Part shown: positions 13,130 to 53,494 of the stretch, piece after piece | Layout of the letters: each line of letters starts with the position of its first letter | Position numbering within the stretch: position 1 is the stretch's first letter | DNA from: an uncultured Candidatus Saccharibacteria bacterium | GTDB taxonomy: Bacteria; Patescibacteriota; JAQUNI01 | DNA: 64,000 nt | Reading direction: 5' to 3' | Assembly (NCBI GenBank): GCA_964555185.1 | Contig: CAZKRD010000001.1 | Coordinates: forward strand, 34,185-98,184 | Made by a program: the position numbers and the translations under genes | Notes under the pieces: generated by a model | The model's database searches: none | Told to the model about the DNA's origin: nothing | The model's input: the letters and a program-made list of their open reading frames with translations, nothing else

Positions 13130-13262
13130 CATATATAGAAATAAGTTGTCATTGCCCGTAGGGGTAGGTCTTGCTTGCCTTGCCCCGCTTAGCCTGCGAG
13201 GCGGACGGTAGGCAGATGTCTACCCTGCCCGGGCGACCACGCGGGGTCGCCCCTACATTTAG
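13130..13262. repeat. Family C: GC-rich hairpin element (cccgtagggg ... ggggtcgcccctac), copy 1.
   Basis: Shares termini with the copies at 17011-17160 and 53247-53340. Much higher GC than its surroundings. Confidence 0.6.
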
Positions 13263-13264
13263 TT

Positions 13265-13915
13265 TTATGAGATTTCTTGATTTCTTTTTAAGAAAACAAA
13301 AAGCGCCATTTCTGTGATCAAGTAAGACCTGCCTATCTTTTCAGATTTGATTTGCCCATTGGCAATTAACCGTCGGACTAGAGCAGTACTCACTTTGAGA
13401 ACACGGGCGGCTTCGGATACAGAATAGACTTTTCGCTTTGCCTGCTTTAAGTAGGTTAAGAACGCTTCTTGGGCTATCCGATGCAGTCTGCCAATTTTAA
13501 AAGCCGCTATCCTGCCCGAAGCAATTAGCTTTATGGCAGTCAAACGGCTTATTTCAAGTTCTTTTTGGAGATTCTTAATATCCAGAAGGGGCTTAACTTT
13601 TTTTTGGTTGGTGAATTTGAGGATTTCCTGTTCTGGGATCCGGTAGAGAGCGCCTACTTTGAGGCTTTTAATTCTTTTTGTTTTTAAGAGTTTCCGGACA
13701 GTGATATGACTGACCTTAAATAAGGAAGCGACCCTTTCAATAGTGTAGAACTTTTGCTTTAAGGAATAGTTAAAGGCTGCCTCTTGAGAGAGGTAGAGAA
13801 AGCGGCCTTTTTGGATAGTTTTAATCCGCCCTTTTTTTATTTGGGCGCGAATCGTCATCTCATTGACCTTGAGAATTTTGGCAGCCTTTTTAATTTTTAA
13901 GAGATGACGAATCAT
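13265..13915 (-). CDS. Protein of four tandem excisionase/MerR-type HTH_17 DNA-binding domains.
   Basis: Four roughly 50-aa repeats, each with a helix-turn-helix and a G(R/A)hhhI wing: ...AAKILKVNEMTIRAQIKKGRIKTIQKGRFLYL; ...VASLFKVSHITVRKLLKTKRIKSLKVGALYRI; ...ELEISRLTAIKLIASGRIAAFKIGRLHRI; ...AARVLKVSTALVRRLIANGQIKSEKIGRSYLI. Confidence 0.6.
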   Translation of the reverse strand: MIRHLLKIKKAAKILKVNEMTIRAQIKKGRIKTIQKGRFLYLSQEAAFNYSLKQKFYTIERVASLFKVSHITVRKLLKTKRIKSLKVGALYRIPEQEILKFTNQKKVKPLLDIKNLQKELEISRLTAIKLIASGRIAAFKIGRLHRIAQEAFLTYLKQAKRKVYSVSEAARVLKVSTALVRRLIANGQIKSEKIGRSYLITEMALFVFLKRNQEIS

Positions 13916-14332
13916 TATTGGGAAGTTGTCGAAAATAAAAAATCTATCGCAATATCAATATATACGACCTAAAATAGGATATCCACAAAGATGGAAGTTT
14001 AACTGACATCCAATTTCATCGTTTATTTTCTGCTTATTTTAGCTAAATATCTCGGTATTGAAATTGTTAAATTGTTGACATAAAACTTAAATATAATATA
14101 CATAGATTATAACATCTTATATGAAAATAGACAAAATAAGATTAAACTCTTTCAGATTTTTTTAAGATCAAAATAAAAACCACCTTTTTCTTAGCGGTTT
14201 TTTGAAGGAGAATAATCACTGCTCCCCTAGTTTGGGGATTATTGCATTTTTGAAATTGACCTTAAGCTTAAAATCTGGTAAATTTTATAGTAGTTTCTCT
14301 TTTTTAAAAAATAAAGATCCCAAGTTGTTCTT

Positions 14333-14403
14333 GCGGGATTAGTATAGTGGTAGTACGTCACCCTTCCAAGGTGAAGGCGCCAGTTCAATTCTGGTATCCC
14401 GCT
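14333..14403 (+). tRNA. tRNA-Gly(TCC), no encoded CCA.
   Basis: Acceptor GCGGGAT/ATCCCGC, D-arm AGTATAGTGGTAGTAC, anticodon loop CTTCCAA (anticodon TCC), T-arm CGCCAGTTCAATTCTGG. Confidence 0.75.
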
Positions 14404-14477
14404 CAATCTATTTTGATTAAAACCAAAAAACACCTGCTACTTTCATTTTAAAGAGGTGTTTTTTGTTTTTATAAAAA

Positions 14478-15317
14478 CTATTTTTTGGTAGGCTTTTTAG
14501 ACTTTTCTTTTTTTTTGGGCTTTAAAGCTTTTTTGATTTTTCCAATGATTTCCTCGGTGGTGAAATTAGCTTTGACCAAATAATCCTGGGCGCCTAAAGC
14601 TTCTCCTTTTTGAATATCGGTTTCTTGTCCGAGATTGGTTAAGAGGATGACCGGGATCCTGGCGATCTGTTTTGAAGCGCGCATTTGCTTCAAGACCTCA
14701 AACCCGTCGATTCCGGGCAGAATGATATCAAGGAGGATTAAAGCCGGCTTTTCTTTTTCAATTTTCCGTAATCCCTCTTGCCCGTCAATCGCGGTGGTTA
14801 CGTCAAAACCCTCTTTCCGCAATTTAGTAACACAGAGGTCTCTTAAGATTTCATCATCCTCGATTAAGAGAATCTTGGTGCCACCACTGTTTTTGGTAGG
14901 CTTTGTTTCCCCTTTTTTGGTATCTGGGCCGATGTCATTTAAGTGCGCTTCTATTTTGAGAATAATGTCTTCAGGGGTTAGATCAGATTTAACCATATAG
15001 TCTCGCGCTCCCAGGGAATATATTTTTTCTTCATTGGGTTCGGAGCTGGAAATGACAATCACTGGTATTTTGGAGATGGTTGGATCATTTTGGATCTCCT
15101 CTAGGACCTCGTAACCATTTTTTTCCGGAATCACGATATCCAAAAGGACCAGGTCTGGTTTGGTTGCTCTGATTTTGCGCAGGCCCTCTTTGCCGTCATG
15201 GGCACTGATTGTTTTGTAGCCTTCTTTGGTTAATTTTTTCCCCATCAGCACCAGGAGATCTTTTTCATCTTCAATAATCATAATTTTAGTTTTTTTGGAG
15301 GTATTGTTTTGAGCCAT
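14478..15317 (-). CDS. Response regulator with two tandem receiver (REC) domains and no output domain.
   Basis: Two CheY-like modules: IMIIEDEKDLL...DLVLLDIVIPEKNG...VIVISS and ILLIEDDEILRDL...ALILLDIILPGIDG...VILLTN. K-rich tail. Confidence 0.8.
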   Translation of the reverse strand: MAQNNTSKKTKIMIIEDEKDLLVLMGKKLTKEGYKTISAHDGKEGLRKIRATKPDLVLLDIVIPEKNGYEVLEEIQNDPTISKIPVIVISSSEPNEEKIYSLGARDYMVKSDLTPEDIILKIEAHLNDIGPDTKKGETKPTKNSGGTKILLIEDDEILRDLCVTKLRKEGFDVTTAIDGQEGLRKIEKEKPALILLDIILPGIDGFEVLKQMRASKQIARIPVILLTNLGQETDIQKGEALGAQDYLVKANFTTEEIIGKIKKALKPKKKEKSKKPTKK

Positions 15318-15388: not shown

Positions 15389-16801
15389 TTAAGCCAAGGG
15401 AAGGCTGAAGTGGAAGGTTGACCCCTTGTTTTCTTCGCTTTCTGCCCAGATTCGGCCTTTGTGTTTTTCGATGATGTTTTTAGCAATAAAGAGGCCCAAG
15501 CCCGAACCTTCGGTTTGCATCCGGATCGCGTTGTCGGCTCTAAAGAATTTAGTGAAAAGGTGGTGCTGCTGTCTTTTGGGGATGCCCATACCAGTGTCTT
15601 CAATACTTACGATTAGCTGTGATTTTTCCACTCTTAAGGAAATTTTTATTTTTCCTCCCGAAGGAGTGTAGGTTGTCGCATTGTTGATAATGTTCTGAAG
15701 CACGACATGGATTTTAGATGGATCCATCTTGATTTTGGGCAGAGGTTTGGGGGGCTTTTGAAAAGTTAGGGTTGTATTTTTTTCCTCCAGAGAGTAACGG
15801 AATTCGTTGATCGTGCGGGCAACAAGGTCTTCCAGCGAGGCGGAGACAAATTTGTATTGGAACCGGCCTTCTTCAATCCGGGAGATGTTGAGCAGATCGT
15901 TAACCAGGTGAATCATTCTTTCATTGGAGCGGTAGCCTTTGGCTAAGATGCTTTTTTGCTCTCCGGTCATTTTGCCGATATCGCCGTCTAGGAGCATTTT
16001 AATACTCCATTTCACTGCCGACAAAGGCGTCCTTAGTTGGTGGGAGACAATCGAGATCAGTTCAGATTTCATTTTGTCCACTTCTTTTTCCCTGGTGATG
16101 TCGCAGATGATTTTGACCGTGCCTAAAATCTCTTTTTTCTTTTTGATTGGCGCGTTGGTAACCTGCAGAATCATTTTCTGGGGTTTTTGGATTTTGATTT
16201 CTGCTGTGGAGAAGTGCTCTAAATCTTTGCCCGCCTTCAAGATTTCACGCAGATTCTTGTAGGAGGGGTGAGCCAGGCTGCTGATCGTGGCAGTCATGAC
16301 TTTGTTTTCTTTCACGCCCAGTATTTTTTCTGCTTGCTGGTTTAAGAAAATGATTTGATTCTTCTTATCCAGAATAATAATACCGTCAATCAAGCTGTTT
16401 AGGATCCCTTTTGTTTTGTCTTTAGATGCAAAAGTGGAACTGAAAGCGGGTTTTTTTTGGATTTTGAAGACAAGCCAGGAGGTGATCGCGCTCGCTCCTA
16501 AGAAATAGATCAAAAGCATCCATGTTTCTAAGGGATCGGGATAGGCGAGTCCTTTGCGGAAAAGGTGGACGGTGATCAGGCCGTAGCCCAAGATGCTGAT
16601 TGAGGCTGTGAAGATGCAGACCTTGTAATTATAGAGAAGGCTGGTTAGGGCAAGCAAGACAAAGTAGCCCAAGATCGTGGAGGATTGGTGGCCGGTGAAA
16701 TAGACAACGACCGCGATTAAAGAGGCGACAGCCCCGCAGAGGATATAGATCGCAAGCGAGGTTTCGATTTTTTGAGTTTTATTTTTTACCTGCTTAGACA
16801 T
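15389..16801 (-). CDS. Sensor histidine kinase (TM region, PAS, HisKA, HATPase_c).
   Basis: N-terminal TM helices. PAS-like ILNSLIDGIIILDKKNQIIFLN. H-box SHQLRTPLSAV. G-boxes DTGMGIP...GSGLGLFIAKNIIEKHKGRIWAES. Confidence 0.85.
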   Translation of the reverse strand: MSKQVKNKTQKIETSLAIYILCGAVASLIAVVVYFTGHQSSTILGYFVLLALTSLLYNYKVCIFTASISILGYGLITVHLFRKGLAYPDPLETWMLLIYFLGASAITSWLVFKIQKKPAFSSTFASKDKTKGILNSLIDGIIILDKKNQIIFLNQQAEKILGVKENKVMTATISSLAHPSYKNLREILKAGKDLEHFSTAEIKIQKPQKMILQVTNAPIKKKKEILGTVKIICDITREKEVDKMKSELISIVSHQLRTPLSAVKWSIKMLLDGDIGKMTGEQKSILAKGYRSNERMIHLVNDLLNISRIEEGRFQYKFVSASLEDLVARTINEFRYSLEEKNTTLTFQKPPKPLPKIKMDPSKIHVVLQNIINNATTYTPSGGKIKISLRVEKSQLIVSIEDTGMGIPKRQQHHLFTKFFRADNAIRMQTEGSGLGLFIAKNIIEKHKGRIWAESEENKGSTFHFSLPLA

Positions 16802-16896: not shown

Positions 16897-17160
16897 AGTG
16901 AGGAGAAAGTGAAATTCCTTTTCACTTTATCCGAGCAAGAATTTCAAGCTTGCTTATAATTAGAAGTGAGGAGAAAGTGAAATTCCTTTTCACTTTATCC
17001 GGGATTATTGCAATGGCCCGTAGGGGCGGACCCATGCTCGCCTCGCTGGCGAAGCGGGTGTCCGCCCGTTGTTGGTAAACCAAGAGTAGGGCGACCACTC
17101 ACCTACGCCAAGGCTCTGGCGGGCGGGCACGGGGTCGCCCCTACGAATTGTTACATCCAA
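16897..17160. repeat. Composite family-C repeat: two 47-bp direct repeats (tataattagaagtgaggagaaagtgaaattccttttcactttatccg) followed by a GC-rich hairpin element with CGTAGGGGCG inverted termini.
   Basis: Direct repeats at 16897-16943 and 16965-17011, separated by the palindrome agcaagaatttcaagcttgct. GC-rich body at 17023-17150 ends in ggggtcgcccctacg. Related copies at 13130-13262 and 53190-53345. Confidence 0.7.
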
Positions 17161-20530: not shown

Positions 20531-20621
20531 GTTAAAAGTTAAAAGTGCAAAGTTGAGTTCAAAGTTCAAAGTTTTAGATTTTTAATTTTGAACTTTGAAC
20601 TTTGAATTTTGAACTAGAAAC
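20531..20621. repeat. Family B dyad spacer (caaagtt words): gttcaaagttcaaagtt...aactttgaactttgaa between pilB and pilC.
   Basis: Imperfect long inverted repeat built from tandem caaagtt-type words. Related spacers at 9600-9735, 29155-29262, 40764-40879 and 49795-49842. Confidence 0.6.
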
Positions 20622-24704: not shown

Positions 24705-24853
24705 GTTAATTTTCAATTTTCAAGTACCAATGTACTAATCAATTTTCAATTTTCAAGTATCAATTTTCAATAACCAATGACTAAATGTTCAAACTGTTTG
24801 AAAATTAAATCTATTCGAACCTTCGGATTTGATTGAAAATTGAGATTTGAAAA
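24705..24853. repeat. Family A intergenic repeat (caattttcaa... aatgttcaaactgtttgaaaattaaatctattcgaa...), copy 1.
   Basis: Near-identical to 29395-29530 and 44407-44550, and in inverted orientation to 42171-42310. Contains the palindrome TTCAAAC-T-GTTTGAA. Confidence 0.75.
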
Positions 24854-25912
24854 TTGAAAATTATATTTATGCGTGCTTTCGGTCTGGATTTATCAGACGC
24901 CAGTTTAAAATTAATTGAATTGAAGAAAGAAGGACAAAACATTGAATTGGCCAATTTTTGTGACTTGCCGCTTGCCGAAGGGGTGATTGTCAAAGGGAGG
25001 ATCGTGAAAGAAGATTTGTTAGCAACCTCGATTAAGGAAGTTTTAAAAAAAGCGCAAAAAGGAAAAGTTAAGAACCGGTTTGTTGTCTCTTGCGTACCTG
25101 AATCTGAATCATTTGTCCGGATTATTAGTCTCCCCAACCTGCCCGAGGAGGAGCTTCCCCAGGGCGTGCGCTGGGAATTTGAACAGCATATCCCTCTTTC
25201 CTTGAACCAGGTTTATTTAGATTGGCAGAAAATTGAATCAGAAGAGGAGGAAACCAAGGTTTTAGTTATCGCTTCGCCTAAGAAGCTGATTGATGCTTAT
25301 ACCAGCGCCCTGAAAAGAGGCGGCTTGATCCCCTGGGCTGTCGAGGCGGAATCAGCCGCCACTGCCCGCAGTTTAATCAAGGAGGGAGATCCGGCTTGTT
25401 TTTTGCTGGTGGATATTGGTTTTAGCCGGACCGGCCTAATTATTTATGATCATGAGACACTGCAGTTTACTTCTGCGGTTGAACCCTTTGGCCAGTCTTT
25501 TACCGATAAATTAACCGAAGATTTAAAAGTGGGCCTGAAAGAGGCAGAGAGCCTCAAGAGAACCTATGGTTTAAGCAGCAGGAAGAAGGGGCCTTCGGAG
25601 AAGGTTCACAAATCCCTCTTGCCCCTGGTTCAATTTTTGGCCAAAGAAATTAGAATCGCGCTCAAGTTTTACTCGGAGCATTTTCCCAGAGGTCAAGCGG
25701 TCAAAAAGATTGTCTTATCCGGCGGCGGATCTAAACTGAAAGGCCTAGTACCTGAACTGAAAGCGATCCTGAAAGCGGACGTTACTTTGGGCAACCCTTG
25801 GGTTAATATTCTGGATCCAGACCATAGATATCTGCCCGAGATCAGCCGTAAGGACTCCTTAAGCTACGCGACAGCGATCGGCTTGGCCTTGCGGGGTGTG
25901 GAAGGAGTGTAA
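24854..25912 (+). CDS. pilM: Type IV pilus assembly protein PilM (actin-like ATPase).
   Basis: FGLDLSDASLKLIELKKEG...VDIGFSRTGLIIY...LSGGGSKLKGL. Alternative start at M6 (24869). Confidence 0.8.
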   Translation: MKIIFMRAFGLDLSDASLKLIELKKEGQNIELANFCDLPLAEGVIVKGRIVKEDLLATSIKEVLKKAQKGKVKNRFVVSCVPESESFVRIISLPNLPEEELPQGVRWEFEQHIPLSLNQVYLDWQKIESEEEETKVLVIASPKKLIDAYTSALKRGGLIPWAVEAESAATARSLIKEGDPACFLLVDIGFSRTGLIIYDHETLQFTSAVEPFGQSFTDKLTEDLKVGLKEAESLKRTYGLSSRKKGPSEKVHKSLLPLVQFLAKEIRIALKFYSEHFPRGQAVKKIVLSGGGSKLKGLVPELKAILKADVTLGNPWVNILDPDHRYLPEISRKDSLSYATAIGLALRGVEGV

Positions 25913-29339: not shown

Positions 29340-29640
29340 TTTTCAATTTTTAATGGTTCGACTATACTCACCACCTTGAGCTTGCCGAAGGGTTTACTAA
29401 TCAATTTTCAATTTTCAAGTACCAATTTTCAATCAATTTTCAATAACCAATGACTAAATGTTCAAACTGTTTGAAAATTAAATCTATTTGAAAATTGGGA
29501 TTTGATTGAACATTGGTCCTTGTAAATTGGTAATTCAAACAATATTTTCAAGTACCAATGGTTCGACTATGCTTACCACCCTGCTTACCATCCTGAGCTT
29601 GCCGAAGGGTTTTTAAACAATTTCCAATGTTTTAATGTTT
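29340..29640. repeat. Family A repeat, largest copy: a full A unit (29395-29530) flanked by two ggttcgactat...gagcttgccgaagggttt sub-units (29353-29395 and 29562-29615).
   Basis: Direct sequence identity with 24705-24853 and 44407-44555, and with 42171-42367 in reverse. Confidence 0.75.
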
Positions 29641-41830: not shown

Positions 41831-42170
41831 TTTGATCTAAGAGTTTATTGATCCTTTCTGCTTTTTCTTGAGAAGTGTCAACACTAAAGTGAAGTTTGGG
41901 GATCTTTCTTAAATGGAGGCGGGAACTAAGGAGGGATTGTAGCTTAATCTTATTTCTTTGTAAAGTTTTCACAATTAAGCTTCTTTTATCTTCAGGTAGA
42001 ACCGAAATCCAAATGCGAGCTTGGGACAGATCTCGAGAAGTGACAACTCGAATTATGGTCGTAAGAGTATTAGGCGGCAGATCGATTTCTGTCAAAATCG
42101 CATTTGCCAGTTCCTTTTTAATCAGGCTGTTAAGTTTTGCAATACGGTAGGACATGGGGTTAATTTTCAA
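41811..42170 (-). CDS. rbfA: Ribosome-binding factor A.
   Basis: RIAKLNSLIKKELANAILTEI...TIIRVVTSRDLSQARIWISVL. Downstream of infB, as in the canonical operon. Confidence 0.8.
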   Translation of the reverse strand: MKINPMSYRIAKLNSLIKKELANAILTEIDLPPNTLTTIIRVVTSRDLSQARIWISVLPEDKRSLIVKTLQRNKIKLQSLLSSRLHLRKIPKLHFSVDTSQEKAERINKLLDQNVKKRP

Positions 42171-42367
42171 TTTTCAAATCTCAATTTTCAATCAAATCCG
42201 AAGGTTCAATGATTTAATTTTCAAACAGTTTGAACATTTCATCATTGGTTATTGGAAATTGATTAGTAAATTGGTACTTGAAAATTGAAAATTGATTGTA
42301 AACCCTTCGGCAAGGTCCAAGCGGTGAGCATAGTCGAACCATTGAAAATCGTCAATTGAAAATTTCC
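42171..42367. repeat. Family A repeat, inverted copy, with an adjacent ggttcgactatgctcaccgcttgg...gccgaagggttt sub-unit.
   Basis: Reverse complement matches 29395-29615. Confidence 0.7.
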
Positions 42368-44406: not shown

Positions 44407-44555
44407 GGGAGGGGGTTAATTTTCAATTTTCAAGTACCAATTTTCAATCAATTTTCAATAACCAATGACTAAATGTTCAAACTGTTTGAAAATTAAATCT
44501 ATTCGAAAATTGGGATTTGATTGTAAATTGAAAATTGTAAATTGAAAAATTTTCT
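44407..44555. repeat. Family A repeat, copy 4.
   Basis: Identical core to 24705-24853. Confidence 0.75.
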
Positions 44556-49919: not shown

Positions 49920-50071
49920 CAAGGTACATAATCTAGATTTTTTATTTGGGTTTTGATATAATAATTACAAAACAAAAAGCCAAATCTGAATCAGGAGGGA
50001 TTTGGCTTTGTTTGGTCCTTTTCAAACTTACTTATCTAATCCTGTAACTGGCAACACAAGGAGGAATGGTT

Positions 50072-51556
50072 ATGATTGAGCGATATACAGACGGGAAGAT
50101 TGTTGAAATCTGGTCCGATTCACACAAACTGTCTCTTTGGCAAAAGACAGAACTGGCAGTGATTGAGGCGATGGCCAATTTGGGGCGGATTGAAAGAGGG
50201 GTCTACAGCCGCATCCGTGAGGCCTTGGATGGTAATCCCATAGATATAGAATGGTGGAAACAAAGAGATCAAGAAATTCATCATGATCTTAATGCTTTCC
50301 TTGATGAGCGTGCGCGTTTCTTGGGCGCTGATCTAGAGCAATATTGGCATCAGGGACTCACTTCTTATGATACAGAAGAGCCTGCTTTTGCCAGAATGCT
50401 TCGATCATCACTGCACAGGGTCGAAGCCCATTACGGCAATTTAGTAGAAGCTTTAAAAGAGAAGGCGTGGCAGTATCGTTATGTGATTATGATCGGTCGC
50501 ACCCATGGCCAGGCCGCTCAATTGCAAAGCGCTGGCAAGAGGTTCTTGTGCTGGCTTCAAGATCTTGCTGTAGATGAGGTGAGTTTATTGAAAGCAGGGA
50601 GGAACCTCAAATATTCTAAACTCTCTGGCGCAATTGGCAATTATGGAGGCCTTGATCCTGATTTAGAGAAAGAGGCTTTGCGTGTCTTAGGATTCGAGCC
50701 TTTCTATGGTGCAACTCAAATTATGCCTCGTGAGATGTGCGCACCTTTGGCTCAAGTGCTTTGCCAGCTGGTTTGTACTTTAGACAAAATTGCAGTTGCA
50801 ATACGGTTAGGCGCGAGAAGTCCGCATCCGATCTATCAGGAGCCGTTTGGCCAAAAACACAAAGGCTCTTCTGTTATGCCTCAGAAGAAGAACCCGATCC
50901 GTAGCGAGCAAGTTGAAGGTATGGCTAATATGGCTAAGGCGTATTTGCGGATGATCATGGATAACATCCGCACCTGGGAAGAAAGAGCAATTGAACAGTC
51001 TTGCGTAGAAAGGGTTGCTTGGCCTGATCTTTTCCATATTGTTGTCCATGTGCTCAAAAGAATGGAAAAGGTGCTTCAGGGCTTAGTGATTTATCCTGAC
51101 AATATGCTCTGGGAGATCCATGAAAGCCGAGGATGTTATGCTTCTTCCGAGGCCAAGGAGTTTCTGAAGCGAGAGGGAGTAGAATATGGTCTTAGCGCTG
51201 AAGACGCCTACCGGATTGTGCAGCTTGCTGCTTTTATTGCTTTCGAACCAGGTGATCGTTTGCGAGATTTGCGCACAGACCTGCCTATTTCTCTAGTGGA
51301 AGCAGACCATCTACTTTTAGCTTTCCCGCAGATGCCCAAATCCCCTGATGTTTCTCTATGTTATATTATCAGGGAGGGCCTCTTGAGTATTTCAGAAGAG
51401 CTTGCCGCCACAGAGGAGGAAATAAAAAGGTGGGTAGAGATTTTAGAGAAGATTTTCACTGAACAGGAAAAACGTGATGATTGGAATCGGCTTTTTTTGC
51501 CCTCTTATCTCTTGCGTAATGAGGAAAAACTCTACCAAGAGATTTTGAGTCTATAA
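50072..51556 (+). CDS. purB: Adenylosuccinate lyase.
   Basis: Fumarate-lyase signature GSSVMPQKKNP and a PurB-like N-terminus ERYTDGKIVEIWSD. RBS aaggagg at 7 nt. Confidence 0.8.
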   Translation: MIERYTDGKIVEIWSDSHKLSLWQKTELAVIEAMANLGRIERGVYSRIREALDGNPIDIEWWKQRDQEIHHDLNAFLDERARFLGADLEQYWHQGLTSYDTEEPAFARMLRSSLHRVEAHYGNLVEALKEKAWQYRYVIMIGRTHGQAAQLQSAGKRFLCWLQDLAVDEVSLLKAGRNLKYSKLSGAIGNYGGLDPDLEKEALRVLGFEPFYGATQIMPREMCAPLAQVLCQLVCTLDKIAVAIRLGARSPHPIYQEPFGQKHKGSSVMPQKKNPIRSEQVEGMANMAKAYLRMIMDNIRTWEERAIEQSCVERVAWPDLFHIVVHVLKRMEKVLQGLVIYPDNMLWEIHESRGCYASSEAKEFLKREGVEYGLSAEDAYRIVQLAAFIAFEPGDRLRDLRTDLPISLVEADHLLLAFPQMPKSPDVSLCYIIREGLLSISEELAATEEEIKRWVEILEKIFTEQEKRDDWNRLFLPSYLLRNEEKLYQEILSL

Positions 51557-51573
51557 TTAAGGAGGAATGGATT

Positions 51574-52086
51574 ATGGCTAAAGTTGCGGTTGTTGTAGGT
51601 AGTAAGAGTGACCTTGAGATAGTAAAAGAGTCTGGAATGTTAGAGGTGTTTAACGAAATGGGCGTGCCTATAGAGGTATCGATCATTTCCGCGCACCGTA
51701 ACCCAGATACACTACCGAACTATTGCCAGAAGGTTCTTAAGAGAAATGATGGCCGGGTGATTTTCATTGCCATTGCTGGAATGGCTGCTGCCCTGGCAGG
51801 CGCGATTGCCGCCCATGCCCGGAAAACGTCAGTGATTGGCGTACCTTTGCCTTCCCGAGAAAAACCAGAAGCGGAAGATGCTTTGTACGCTATGCTTCAA
51901 ATGCCCAAAGATGTTCCGGTGGCTGTGCCTGGAATAGGGAAGTCTGGATTATACAAGGCCGCCATCTTGGCTTGCCAGATTTTGGCCCTGACGGATTCAG
52001 ACTATTGGCTCGCACTAGATGGTTTTATTAAAGATCATCATAAAGAGCCCCAGATTGATATTTCGTTATCAGAAGAGGAGGAGTGA
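51574..52086 (+). CDS. purE: Phosphoribosylaminoimidazole carboxylase catalytic subunit / N5-CAIR mutase.
   Basis: MAKVAVVVGSKSDLEIVKE...SAHRNPD...GMAAALAG is the PurE fold signature. RBS aaggagg. Confidence 0.85.
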   Translation: MAKVAVVVGSKSDLEIVKESGMLEVFNEMGVPIEVSIISAHRNPDTLPNYCQKVLKRNDGRVIFIAIAGMAAALAGAIAAHARKTSVIGVPLPSREKPEAEDALYAMLQMPKDVPVAVPGIGKSGLYKAAILACQILALTDSDYWLALDGFIKDHHKEPQIDISLSEEEE

Positions 52087-52089
52087 ACA

Positions 52090-53115
52090 ATGGGAGCAAA
52101 GATTCCAGAAGCAATTCAGGAAACAGCGTTAAGCCGTAAGCTTGCTGCTGCCGGTCTTAATCGAGTTTATCAAGGTAAGGTCCGGGATACTTGTGCCGTA
52201 CCAAGTAATGACAAACTTCTACTGGTTGTTGCTTCAGGTCGTTTGAGTATTTTTGACTTTGTGTTGAATTGCCAGGTGAAAGATAAAGGTCAAATCTTGA
52301 CTGCTCTAACCATCTTCTGGCTGACCACTGTATTGAAAGATACAATACATCACTTGATCGCTTTCGGTGCAGGCATTGATGCGTATTTACCTCCTGACTT
52401 GAGAGGAAATCCAGAGTTGCAAGCCAGAGCCGTGGTGGTCAGAAAACTTGAGATAATATCAGTTGAATGCGTGGTCAGAGGTTGTCTTACGGGTTCGGGT
52501 TGGCGATCCTATCGAATGGATGGCACTGTTTGTGGTCAGAGCTTGCCACCTGGTTTGCATGATGGATCAAGACTAGATAAGCCTATTTTTACACCAACGA
52601 GCAAGGCAGTATTTGGTCATGATCAGCCCATGACTAGGGAGCAGGTAAGGCAGAGACATACAGAAGAGCTAGAAGATTTTAGTTTGGCATACTATAACAC
52701 AGCACGTAGTTATGCTGAAGAACACGATGTCATCATCGCTGATACTAAATTTGAGTTTGGCCGTTTAGACGACGGATCACTCTCTGTTCTTGCTGATGAG
52801 GTAATTACCCCTGATTCATCGCGTTTCTGGGACCGAGAAGAATGGGAAATAGCCCAAAAAGAACAGAGAGCACCTCAAGGTTATGATAAAGAGCCTGTGC
52901 GTCAAGAGGGCAAGGGAGTTGAAACGCCTTTTTCCGGTTTAACTGGTATTCATAGTCTTGATGCGCAGGATGAAGAGCATATCATATTTGTACATCAATG
53001 GAGGGTTCCAAAAGAGGTTCTTTCCGCCACTAGAAAACGTTACCGCACGATCTTTGAACGTTTAACTGGGAGGTCTCTTGAAAGCTTCCAGAGAGATGTG
53101 ATGCACATTGGCTAG
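52090..53115 (+). CDS. purC: Phosphoribosylaminoimidazole-succinocarboxamide (SAICAR) synthase, long form.
   Basis: YQGKVRDTCAV...LLLVVASGRLSIFDFVL...IADTKFEFG are PurC motifs. Confidence 0.8.
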   Translation: MGAKIPEAIQETALSRKLAAAGLNRVYQGKVRDTCAVPSNDKLLLVVASGRLSIFDFVLNCQVKDKGQILTALTIFWLTTVLKDTIHHLIAFGAGIDAYLPPDLRGNPELQARAVVVRKLEIISVECVVRGCLTGSGWRSYRMDGTVCGQSLPPGLHDGSRLDKPIFTPTSKAVFGHDQPMTREQVRQRHTEELEDFSLAYYNTARSYAEEHDVIIADTKFEFGRLDDGSLSVLADEVITPDSSRFWDREEWEIAQKEQRAPQGYDKEPVRQEGKGVETPFSGLTGIHSLDAQDEEHIIFVHQWRVPKEVLSATRKRYRTIFERLTGRSLESFQRDVMHIG

Positions 53116-53189: not shown

Positions 53190-53345
53190 GTGAGCCTGCC
53201 TGCCGGTAGGCAGGGTAGGCAGGGAGAAAGTGAAATTCCTTTTCACTTTATTCGGGATTATTGTCATTACCCGTAGGGGCAACCCTTGTGGTTGCCCGTC
53301 TGTGGCATTTGTTTAGCCGACAATGGGCAACCACAAGGGTTGCCC
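53190..53345. repeat. Family C element, copy 3: cctgcc/ggcagg hairpin, agaaagtgaaattccttttcacttt hairpin, then a 25-bp perfect inverted repeat (gtaggggcaacccttgtggttgccc) around a 27-nt loop.
   Basis: The perfect inverted repeat is visible directly at 53268-53344. Confidence 0.7.
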
Positions 53346-53494
53346 CTACAAAACCGTCCCAGACTAGGTGATATTATTGGCGCATTTAAATCAATGACAA
53401 CCTGTAGTTACATCCAAAATTAAGAATTTCGAGCTTGCTTGATTTGTCTGAATTTTGCTATATTTAAAGAATGAGAATAAGATACTAGAAACAA

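What the first reader, a model, noticed from the sequence alone, without database searches (positions are those of the whole stretch)
13265..14332. Protein made of four tandem excisionase-type HTH_17 domains, next to a family-C repeat and a 415-bp AT-rich gene-free spacer before tRNA-Gly
Four consecutive 50-aa helix-turn-helix/wing repeats with no other domain is an uncommon architecture. Candidate roles are a multivalent DNA-bending protein, a nucleoid protein, or a remnant excision module. Its position at a tRNA gene, a classic integration site, is suggestive. The long AT-rich non-coding stretch at 13916-14332 is suggestive too, but no integrase is present.
Basis: partly seen in the sequence, partly recalled or inferred. 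Interest (0 to 1): 0.6.

Follow-up and report, generated by a model that had tools for sequence, protein, structure and literature searches.

The report
Four-module winged-helix DNA-binding protein gene
This is a real, vertically inherited chromosomal gene for a very basic protein made of four linked excisionase/BldC-type DNA-binding modules, preceded by an unusually conserved control region; it is not a leftover of a mobile element at the tRNA gene.

Summary
ORF 13265-13915 (-) encodes 216 aa made of four gap-free HTH_17/excisionase-type winged-helix modules. Upstream lies a 417-bp, 26% GC spacer reaching tRNA-Gly(UCC). Downstream lies a GC-rich repeat.

The mobile-element reading fails. The window carries only housekeeping genes, with no integrase found and no att-like tRNA repeats. 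The gene sits on the tRNA's 5' side, and the HK-RR-tRNA-Gly-spacer-gene order recurs in a genome with dS of about 0.4.

The gene is under purifying selection (dN/dS 0.11-0.23), and the protein has pI 10.9. Single modules superpose on BldC and the RdfS excisionase. Sister lineages have five modules, and metagenomes hold many uncharacterised arrays of 2-10 modules.

New points:
- The 235 bp upstream of the gene are three to four times better conserved than its synonymous sites.
- That region is duplicated in some relatives and carries a DnaA-box-like 9-mer.
- In relatives the gene is tightly followed by genes for secreted or anchored proteins.

Best reading: a single-chain equivalent of Xis/BldC/RdfS head-to-tail filaments, acting as an architectural regulator. 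This is a new variant of a known kind, of moderate interest.

The parts
13265..13915 (-). CDS of the 216-aa protein made of four HTH_17 modules (pI 10.9, net charge +37)
   Evidence: Under purifying selection, dN/dS 0.11-0.23. The start codon position is shared by all orthologues.
13754..13909 (-). Module 1 (aa 3-54). It lacks the C-terminal helix and is followed by the conserved linker AAFNYSLxQKF.
13601..13756 (-). Module 2 (aa 54-105)
13439..13594 (-). Module 3 (aa 108-159), the best conserved module (SRLTxxKLIxSGxIAAFKIG)
13280..13435 (-). Module 4 (aa 161-212)
13916..14150 (-). Constrained promoter and leader region of the gene
   Evidence: 84-86% identical to L004 and L021 and 75% to L024, while synonymous sites of the CDS differ by 43-65%. 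The module is duplicated in L047, L044, L048 and L049.
14106..14134 (-). Distal promoter-like element: TTGTCT, 17 nt, TATAAT, with TG (extended -10)
   Evidence: Consensus scan. The core ATGTTATAATCTATGTA is identical in five loci. It is the only such site in the window.
13999..14019 (-). Possible 6-codon upstream ORF ATGAAATTGGATGTCAGTTAA (MKLDVS*)
   Evidence: ATG, a GAT codon at position 4 and the stop are kept in register in L004, L021, L024 and L047. Most genes here lack a Shine-Dalgarno sequence. This is a weak inference.
13979..13987 (+). DnaA-box-like 9-mer ATATCCACA (consensus TTATNCACA). It overlaps the -35 of a proximal promoter-like element at 13957-13985 (-).
   Evidence: It sits at a conserved position, -72, in L004, L021 and L024. 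A perfect TTATNCACA occurs in 5 of 8 independent leaders against 0.23 expected.
13931..13968 (-). Invariant block GTCGTATA..ATATTRCGATAG + T-run: a weak 6-bp hairpin followed by T-rich sequence, ending 16 nt before the ATG
   Evidence: Present in window, L004, L021, L024, L047, L020 and L048. L043 has an unrelated, stronger hairpin plus T-run at the same place.
14175..14202 (-). Terminator-like hairpin on the gene's strand, upstream of its promoter; probably an insulator against read-through
   Evidence: A G-U to G-C change in L004 keeps the stem.
14256..14284 (+). Promoter-like element for tRNA-Gly, divergent from the HTH gene
   Evidence: Conserved in L004.
14333..14404 (+). tRNA-Gly(UCC), a syntenic neighbour and not an attachment site
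13146..13262 (.). GC-rich palindromic MITE-like element ('family C'), inserted just after the stop codon
   Evidence: Absent at the same site in L004.

Best explanation
The ORF is a functional, vertically inherited chromosomal gene. The host is probably a small-genome, CPR-like bacterium from marine sediment. The protein is extremely basic and consists only of four covalently linked Xis/BldC-type winged-helix modules; sister lineages have five. Each module has kept its own identity since an old duplication, and each retains the helix and wing motifs of the family.

The protein most likely lays its modules consecutively along roughly 35-45 bp of DNA. In that mode it would be a single-chain counterpart of the head-to-tail filaments that free-standing Xis, BldC and RdfS monomers form. 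It would distort the DNA and act as an architectural transcription regulator.

Its most probable targets are its own promoter and leader and the adjacent cell-envelope gene. The leader is unusually constrained and carries a DnaA-box-like site overlapping a proximal promoter.

Shown: the domain composition, the fold of single modules, purifying selection, synteny, the constraint on the leader, and the enrichment of the 9-mer. Inferred: DNA binding, the head-to-tail mode, autoregulation, input from DnaA, and a link to envelope genes.
For: - Domain composition: four HTH_17/excise matches and nothing else.
- Structure: AlphaFold2 model with pLDDT 86 and pTM 0.66, with four beta-alpha-alpha-beta-beta(-alpha) units and no linkers.
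- Fold matches: a single module superposes on BldC-DNA complex chains (6ama, prob 1.0, rmsd 1.7 A over 50 aa), on the RdfS excisionase (8dgl) and on the two-module regulator TraN (4p0z). Profile-sequence hits reach Pukovnik Xis 4j2n at E=0.003; the BldC chains 6ama/6amk appear only at non-significant E of 0.6-0.7.
- Charge: pI 10.9, net +37.
- Repeat history: modules are 21-35% identical to each other but 40-81% identical to their orthologous modules.
- Selection: dN/dS 0.11-0.23.
- Leader constraint: 75-86% identity against pS 0.43-0.65 in the CDS. The leader is duplicated in relatives.
- 9-mer: TTATNCACA in 5 of 8 independent leaders against 0.23 expected, with none of 2000 shuffles reaching 5.
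- Precedents: BldC binds four 9-bp direct repeats head-to-tail and distorts the DNA (PMC5859096). RdfS and TraN bind their own promoters (PMC11963761; PMC10877727).
- Neighbours: the downstream gene starts between a 4-bp overlap and 15 bp after the stop in six relatives, and about 200 bp after it in L048. In all seven it encodes a protein with an N-terminal signal or anchor.
Against: - No binding site could be identified. The leader shows no significant periodic direct repeats.
- The relative orientation of the modules could not be inspected, because the tools do not return model coordinates. Whole-model similarity to TraN is poor (TM 0.4, rmsd above 10 A).
- In the window itself the downstream gene is a different, PMT_2-like membrane protein. 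It is separated from the HTH gene by more than 200 bp and a MITE-like insertion, so operon coupling is not shown here.
- dN is 3-4 times that of neighbouring genes while the leader is conserved. This sits awkwardly with a simple protein-operator pair.
- A net charge of +37 would suit a non-specific nucleoid protein equally well.
Confidence: 0.55

Rival explanations
1. The protein is a general nucleoid-associated protein. It would coat or bend AT-rich DNA genome-wide with little sequence specificity and be highly expressed from a strong, conserved promoter.
For: - pI 10.9 and net charge +37.
- Four DNA-binding modules and no sensor or effector domain.
- A near-consensus extended -10 promoter conserved across lineages.
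- One copy in the 64-kb window.
- Xis and BldC relatives read AT-rich narrow minor grooves (PMC5859096).
Against: - Each module keeps a distinct, lineage-conserved recognition helix, which suggests a composite specific site.
- One related genome carries at least three paralogues, each next to other genes. This looks like a set of local regulators rather than one global protein.
- An HU gene is already present nearby.
- There is no expression evidence.
Confidence: 0.2
2. The gene is a domesticated or decaying recombination directionality factor (excisionase) left by an element that once integrated at tRNA-Gly.
For: - Profile names point this way: TIGR01764 'excise' and PHROG excisionase families.
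- The gene is adjacent to a tRNA gene.
- The AT-rich flank has a lower GC content than its surroundings.
Against: - No integrase or phage or plasmid gene was found in the window.
- No repeat of either tRNA end exists in the window.
- The gene is on the 5' side of the tRNA.
- The same HK-RR-tRNA-spacer-gene order occurs in a genome at dS about 0.4, and tRNA-Gly also adjoins the gene in L024.
- The gene is under purifying selection.
- No multi-module match exists in 50,697 phage or 72,556 plasmid records.
- Known RDFs have a single module.
Confidence: 0.04
3. The conserved AT-rich region is a replication origin or a DnaA-titrating cluster, and the protein is an origin-associated factor.
For: - DnaA-box-like 9-mers recur in the leaders of this gene family.
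- The region is AT-rich and gene-free.
- Relatives carry duplicated modules that each contain a box.
Against: - The window's spacer holds only one box, and it has one mismatch. DnaA boxes do not cluster there.
- GC skew is positive across the whole 64 kb with no inflection at 14 kb.
Confidence: 0.04
4. The tandem winged helices bind RNA or another protein rather than DNA. The precedents are the four winged helices of SelB and the winged-helix repeats of UFL1/DDRGK1.
For: - The best full-length Foldseek hits are tandem winged-helix proteins: UFL1/DDRGK1 (8b9x) and the SelB C-terminal fragment (1lva).
- The protein is very basic.
Against: - Those matches have TM scores of about 0.16 and rmsd of about 17 A, so they reflect only the repetition of a small fold.
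- Sequence profiles place every module in the DNA-binding HTH_17/excise family.
- Single modules fit BldC at 1.7 A.
Confidence: 0.05

Closest known systems
BldC of Streptomyces (founder of the BldC family of MerR-like winged-helix regulators; PDB 6ama, 6amk; PMC5859096)
   Same: The single-module fold is the same (Foldseek prob 1.0, rmsd 1.7 A over 50 aa). Neither protein has a dimerisation or effector domain. BldC occupies up to four consecutive 9-bp direct repeats head-to-tail and distorts the DNA. Four linked modules would reproduce that stoichiometry.
   Different: BldC is a 68-residue single module that oligomerises on DNA. Here four diverged modules (21-35% identical) sit in one chain. 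The NCBIfam BldC model scores 17.8 bits against a cut-off of 77. The host lineage is unrelated, and no AATTNNNN(C)-type repeat array was found upstream.
Excisionases that form filaments: lambda Xis, mycobacteriophage Pukovnik Xis (4j2n) and the ICE excisionase RdfS (8dgl; PMC11963761)
   Same: They belong to the same domain family by sequence profile and fold. They work by cooperative head-to-tail assembly on DNA with indirect readout, and RdfS binds its own promoter.
   Different: Those proteins are single-module, are encoded next to an integrase inside a mobile element, and act at att sites. None of these features is present here.
TraN of plasmid pIP501 (PDB 4p0z; PMC10877727)
   Same: It is a monomeric protein made of two excisionase/MerR-like winged-helix domains in one chain. 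It acts as a sequence-specific repressor and regulates its own expression. Foldseek prob 1.0. This is the nearest characterised precedent for covalently linked modules.
   Different: TraN has two modules, not four, and a different inter-module geometry (TM 0.4, rmsd above 10 A). It is plasmid-borne within a type IV secretion operon. There is no detectable sequence match in plasmid records.
Uncharacterised tandem HTH_17 arrays in metagenomes
   Same: They are built from the same modules repeated 2-10 times with no other domain. At least 125 of the 156 proteins examined have two or more modules. One example, P0012, has 8 Pfam HTH_17 stretches. Phage metagenomes hold forms of 115-190 aa whose aligned lengths suggest two or three modules.
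   Different: None has a described function or a paper in the searched library. The close family of this gene (4-5 modules, at least 37% identity) comprises only 11 sequences, from metagenome contigs and metagenome-assembled genomes.

Membership tests
HTH_17 / excisionase-family DNA-binding domain (Pfam PF12728, TIGR01764) | Profile match above the curated cut-off | tested here: met
   PF12728: 120.7 bits against 27, in 4 stretches. TIGR01764: 115.4 bits against 28.8, in 4 stretches.
HTH_17 / excisionase-family DNA-binding domain (Pfam PF12728, TIGR01764) | Winged helix-turn-helix fold (beta-alpha-alpha-beta-beta wing) | tested here: met
   The AlphaFold2 secondary structure shows this pattern in all four units. 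Foldseek matches BldC and RdfS at prob 0.99 or higher.
Recombination directionality factor (Xis-type excisionase) | Encoded in a mobile element next to a tyrosine or serine integrase | tested here: not met
   The genes scanned in the 64-kb window gave only housekeeping Pfam families and no integrase.
Recombination directionality factor (Xis-type excisionase) | Element bounded by att repeats, typically a duplicated tRNA 3' end | tested here: not met
   The 23-24-nt 3' and 5' ends of tRNA-Gly occur only once in the window, even allowing 3 mismatches. The gene lies 5' of the tRNA.
Recombination directionality factor (Xis-type excisionase) | Patchy, horizontally acquired distribution | tested here: not met
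   The HK-RR-tRNA-Gly-gene synteny is conserved in L004, and tRNA-Gly adjoins the gene in L024. Selection is purifying.
BldC family | NCBIfam NF033787 match above cut-off; small single-module protein | tested here: not met
   17.8 bits against a cut-off of 77. The protein has 216 aa and four modules.
BldC family | Head-to-tail binding to direct repeats with DNA distortion | not testable with these tools
   This needs footprinting or a structure with DNA. No repeat array was detected in the leader.
Classical MerR regulators | N-terminal wHTH plus a coiled-coil dimerisation helix and an effector-binding domain | tested here: not met
   Pfam MerR scores 19.5 bits (cut-off 28.2) and MerR_1 19.9 bits (cut-off 21.6). 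The model shows no long coiled coil or C-terminal domain.
TraN-like two-domain conjugation regulators | Two wHTH domains in the TraN arrangement, encoded in a type IV secretion operon of an Inc18-type plasmid | tested here: not met
   TM 0.40 and rmsd 13 A to 4p0z. No plasmid match. The context is chromosomal.
MADS defence system protein MAD1 / magnetosome protein MamR | Equivalog score above cut-off and partner genes nearby | tested here: not met
   MADS1 scores 40.5 bits against 80 and MamR 60.7 against 100. The PADLOC mad1 hit covers the generic HTH only. No partner genes are nearby.

The most novel reading that the evidence does not exclude
Tandem Xis/BldC-type winged-helix arrays are a distinct, unstudied class of single-chain 'pre-assembled filament' DNA architectural proteins. 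In this lineage a 4-5-module member is expressed from a DnaA-box-bearing, ultra-constrained leader. Together with that leader it forms a portable control cassette that sits in front of fast-changing cell-surface protein genes of small-genome (CPR-like) bacteria. That arrangement would couple envelope or host-contact gene expression to replication status.
Probability: 0.15. Interest if true: 0.65.

Novelty: new variant of a known kind. Interest (0 to 1): 0.42.

Why it matters
Xis, BldC and RdfS have shown that tiny winged-helix proteins gain specificity and bend DNA by assembling head-to-tail. A natural protein in which four or five such modules are fused and individually diverged would be a fixed-stoichiometry version of that filament.

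It could show how composite, long DNA sites are read by indirect readout. It could also serve as a scaffold for designed DNA binders.

For the biology of small-genome uncultivated bacteria, it points to a lineage-specific regulator with three notable features. Its control region is more conserved than its coding sequence. That region carries a DnaA-box-like motif. The gene is repeatedly paired with surface-protein genes, the class of genes thought to mediate host attachment in these organisms.

It also corrects a tempting misannotation: 'excisionase next to a tRNA' does not here indicate a mobile element.

Tried and rejected
- **Integration-site reading.** I searched the window for copies of the tRNA-Gly 3' and 5' ends, allowing up to 3 mismatches, and found none. 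Integrase-sized and neighbouring ORFs scanned with Pfam gave only housekeeping families.
- **Phage or plasmid origin.** tblastn against phage records found only a single-module match in Thermus phage P23-77. Nothing was found in plasmids.
- **Structured RNA in the spacer.** Rfam found nothing but the tRNA. The leader's folding energy is ordinary (z = -0.49). Five-sequence alifold gives almost no covariation.
- **Operator array.** Tandem Repeats Finder and a k-mer autocorrelation found no conserved periodic repeats. The only signal, at lag 8, comes from AACAATTT x2, which L004 does not share.
- **Origin of replication.** There is one imperfect DnaA box, no cluster, and no GC-skew inflection.
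- **Conserved partner gene.** The window's 598-aa PMT_2-like membrane protein is unrelated to the downstream proteins of the relatives. The window holds no homologue of those proteins.
- **Wider sampling.** Genome and metagenome scans with the family alignment returned no close orthologue beyond a contig already found, plus distant matches that are almost all single-module genes.
- **False positive.** P0017 (2605 aa) from the representative search is a cadherin-repeat protein and not a family member.
Full report
**1. What is there**

The region holds one ORF on the minus strand, 13265-13915, of 216 aa. Pfam HTH_17 matches it at E=3e-35 (120.7 bits; cut-off 27) in four separate stretches. TIGR01764 'excisionase family DNA-binding domain' matches at 1.1e-33, also in four stretches. 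Every other hit is a weaker generic helix-turn-helix model laid over the same stretches.

The four units align to one another without gaps at a period of about 53 residues. A repeat HMM built from the family places them at aa 3-54, 54-105, 108-159 and 161-212, with essentially no linkers.

tRNA-Gly(UCC) is at 14333-14404 on the plus strand. Between it and the gene lie 417 bp at 26% GC; the window averages about 43%.

Immediately after the stop codon sits a GC-rich, palindromic element at about 13146-13262. It shares a core with copies near 16970 and 53223. It is missing from the same site in a related genome, so it is a MITE-like insertion.

**2. The gene is real, and it is not mobile-element debris**

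Exactly the same protein is encoded on a 707-kb scaffold of a metagenome assembly and on shorter contigs from the same study. That sample accession appears in a paper on marine microbial genomes.

Genes within 6 kb encode a PAS histidine kinase, a double-receiver response regulator, iPGM, a type II/IV secretion ATPase, HU, YmdB, RNase Y and NusB. Further ORFs across the 64 kb encode RNase III, type IV pilus proteins, TilS, S1, NusA, trigger factor, purine enzymes and RNase HII. No integrase, transposase or phage gene was found.

Neither end of tRNA-Gly is repeated anywhere in the window, even with three mismatches allowed. The gene lies on the 5' side of the tRNA.

A 75%-identical orthologue (P0002) sits on a 118-kb JGI contig in the identical order HK, RR, tRNA-Gly, spacer, gene. 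A 67%-identical orthologue (L024) is also preceded by a tRNA. That tRNA is truncated by the contig end and has a different sequence; I read its anticodon loop as UCC.

Nei-Gojobori estimates give dN/dS of 0.11-0.23 for the gene. Four neighbouring genes give 0.09-0.13. The gene's dN of 0.144 is three to four times that of most neighbours (up to eight times for T2SSE). It is therefore a fast-evolving but clearly selected gene.

tblastn finds no multi-module relative in 50,697 phage records or 72,556 plasmid records. The 'remnant excision module at an integration site' reading is rejected. The tRNA adjacency is ordinary vertical synteny.

**3. The protein**

An AlphaFold2 model built on an 11-sequence family alignment has mean pLDDT 86 and pTM 0.66. 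It shows four beta-alpha-alpha-beta-beta(-alpha) units. Module 1 lacks the last helix and is followed by a conserved AAFNYSLxQKF segment.

With Foldseek against the PDB, a single module superposes on three proteins:
- BldC in its DNA complex (6ama; prob 1.0, rmsd 1.7 A over 50 residues, TM 0.76 on the target);
- the ICE excisionase RdfS (8dgl);
- the two-module plasmid regulator TraN (4p0z).

Profile-sequence search of the PDB finds mycobacteriophage Pukovnik Xis (E=0.003). BldC appears only at a non-significant E of 0.6-0.7.

The best full-length hits are UFL1/DDRGK1 and SelB. Both are tandem winged-helix proteins, but the TM scores are about 0.16, so they reflect only repetition of a small fold.

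The protein has pI 10.9, with 50 Lys+Arg against 13 Asp+Glu. Modules are 21-35% identical to each other but 40-81% identical to the corresponding module of orthologues. The duplication is therefore old, and each module has its own conserved sequence, including the second helix and the K-I-G-R wing motif.

**4. The family**

The word-indexed search of 5.8 billion proteins found only five relatives. An exhaustive HMMER search of 1.84 billion cluster representatives found 213 proteins at E<=1e-3. The close family is small: 11 sequences at 37% identity or more, with four modules (212-217 aa) or five (263-280 aa; the extra module is N-terminal). They come from metagenome contigs and metagenome-assembled genomes.

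Beyond that, of the 156 proteins examined, at least 125 carry two or more modules and 67 carry three or more, up to ten. Pfam confirms pure arrays; P0012, for example, has eight HTH_17 stretches and 321 bits. One hit, P0017, is a false positive made of cadherin repeats.

Viral predicted structures include proteins of 115-190 aa that align over 100-190 columns, lengths consistent with two or three modules.

Full-text searches for HTH_17 or PF12728 returned no paper describing such arrays. The architecture is therefore recurrent but uncharacterised. The nearest studied precedent for covalently linked modules is TraN. It is a monomeric two-module repressor that also controls its own expression (PMC10877727).

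**5. The spacer is the more unusual part**

The region upstream of the gene was aligned across loci. The 235 bp next to the start codon are 85.6% identical to L004, 84% to L021/L023 and 75% to L024. Synonymous sites of the adjoining CDS differ by 43%, 65% and 64% in the same comparisons. The non-coding DNA is therefore several-fold more constrained than silent coding positions.

The near-invariant blocks are these:
- A near-consensus extended -10 promoter, TTGTyT-17-TGTTATAAT (window 14106-14134, minus strand). It is the only such site in the window.
- A 9-mer, ATATCCACA (13979-13987), one mismatch from the DnaA-box consensus TTATNCACA. It overlaps the -35 of a second promoter-like element.
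- The block GTCGTATA..ATATTRCGATAG followed by a T-run (13931-13968). This is a weak hairpin ending 16 nt before the ATG. It recurs in L047, L020 and L048. L043 has an unrelated, stronger hairpin plus T-run at the same place.

The whole module is present two or three times in tandem upstream of the orthologues in L047, L044, L048 and L049.

A perfect TTATNCACA occurs in 5 of 8 independent leaders. Composition-matched shuffles give 0.23 on average, and none of 2000 shuffles reached 5.

A 6-codon upstream ORF (13999-14019: MKLDVS*) keeps its ATG, a GAT codon at position 4 and an in-register stop in five lineages. Most genes in this window lack a Shine-Dalgarno sequence, so its absence there carries no weight. 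I treat the upstream ORF as a weak lead.

Several alternative explanations were tested and failed:
- The leader does not fold better than shuffles (z = -0.49) and shows almost no covariation.
- Rfam finds nothing in it.
- It has no conserved periodic repeats.
- It is not an origin: there is one imperfect box, no cluster, and no skew inflection.

The constraint therefore acts most plausibly at the DNA level, through promoters plus protein-binding sites. A leader-termination element is also possible.

**6. Neighbours in relatives**

In six related loci the next gene begins between a 4-bp overlap and 15 bp after the stop codon (L020, L021/L023, L043, L044, L047, L049). In L048 the gap is about 200 bp. 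In all seven the next gene encodes a protein with a basic N-terminus followed by a hydrophobic signal or anchor.

These proteins have no Pfam family on record: L020 and L021 were scanned here with no hit, L043, L047 and L048 carry none in the precomputed annotation, and the truncated products of L044 and L049 were not searched. Those of L043, L047 and L048 are homologous (44-54% identical) and also carry a C-terminal anchor. L020 and L049 share 49% identity over their N-terminal ~100 residues, all that the truncated L049 product provides.

In L043 and L048 a further three-module HTH_17 gene follows. One genome (GCA_964648435.1) holds at least three family members.

In the window the downstream gene differs. 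It is a 598-aa polytopic PMT_2-like membrane protein, more than 200 bp away and beyond the MITE-like insertion. The window holds no homologue of the relatives' surface proteins. The pairing with envelope genes is suggestive but not shown to be functional.

**7. Mechanism proposed**

BldC monomers bind 9-bp direct repeats head-to-tail, four of them at the smeA promoter, and strongly distort the DNA (PMC5859096). RdfS forms helical filaments, reads long sites with little sequence consensus, and binds its own promoter (PMC11963761). TraN shows that two such modules can work as one chain.

The most economical reading is that this protein is a fixed-length, single-chain version of such a filament. 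Four diverged modules would contact roughly four consecutive half- to full-turn segments of DNA, about 35-45 bp, giving a long composite site and a bend. That would suit an architectural repressor or activator.

Autoregulation through the constrained leader is inferred by analogy with RdfS and TraN. DnaA input is inferred from the enriched 9-mer. None of the binding steps has been shown.

The main rival is a non-specific nucleoid protein, which the charge and the strong promoter would suit equally well.

**8. Verdict**

The feature is not an artefact, and it is not a mobile-element remnant.

It is a new variant of a known kind: Xis/BldC-type winged-helix modules in a 4-5-module single chain, within a small lineage-specific family.

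Three side results are new here: a leader more conserved than the coding sequence, a recurrent DnaA-box-like motif, and recurrent pairing with surface-protein genes. Interest is moderate.

Noticed in passing
window 13146-13262; also about 16970-17110 and 53223-53370: A GC-rich palindromic element bounded by GTAGGGG...CCCCTAC, with a shared core CCCGTAGGGG. It is present in at least three copies in the window and absent from the orthologous site in L004, so it is a recently inserted MITE-like repeat. L020, L025 and L048 carry other GC-rich palindromic insertions between the leader and the ATG.
   Followed up: partly
window 13979-13987; leaders of L043, L044, L047, L048, L049: A DnaA-box consensus TTATNCACA recurs in the upstream regions of this gene family (5 of 8 independent leaders against 0.23 expected). 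In the window's clade a one-mismatch variant is fixed at position -72. This may mean DnaA-dependent transcription control in a small-genome bacterium.
   Followed up: partly
window 13999-14019 (-): A six-codon upstream ORF (MKLDVS*) whose ATG, fourth codon GAT and stop stay in register in five lineages although the other codons change.
   Followed up: partly
L043 456-3071; L048 5001-9565; L047 831-3340: A recurring cassette: a multi-module HTH_17 gene, then a 400-457-aa protein with N- and C-terminal anchors, then (in L047 and L048) a GIY-YIG gene. L043 and L048 continue with a three-module HTH_17 gene, which in L048 is followed by a further membrane protein. One MAG (GCA_964648435.1) has at least three family members.
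   Followed up: partly
window 24730-24856, 29397-29529, 42156-42349, 44412-44544; also 9694, 20565-20615, 29221, 40844, 49802: Two families of AT-rich dispersed intergenic repeats (AATTTTCAATTTTCAA... and AACTTTGCACTTTGAA...), up to 139 nt long, in both orientations and often beside tRNA genes and gene starts.
   Followed up: no
window 14478-15317 (-) and 15389-16801 (-): A response regulator made of two receiver domains with no output domain, next to a PAS histidine kinase. The pair is conserved next to tRNA-Gly in L004.
   Followed up: no
window, 32 gene starts: About three quarters of the confident genes have no Shine-Dalgarno-like motif within 25 nt of the start. The exceptions cluster at 50066-53115.
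   Followed up: no
L005, L010, L029, L030, L032, L035: In several Bacillota, Selenomonadales and other metagenome contigs, two single-module HTH_17 genes lie directly adjacent. This could be an unfused counterpart of the tandem arrays.
   Followed up: no
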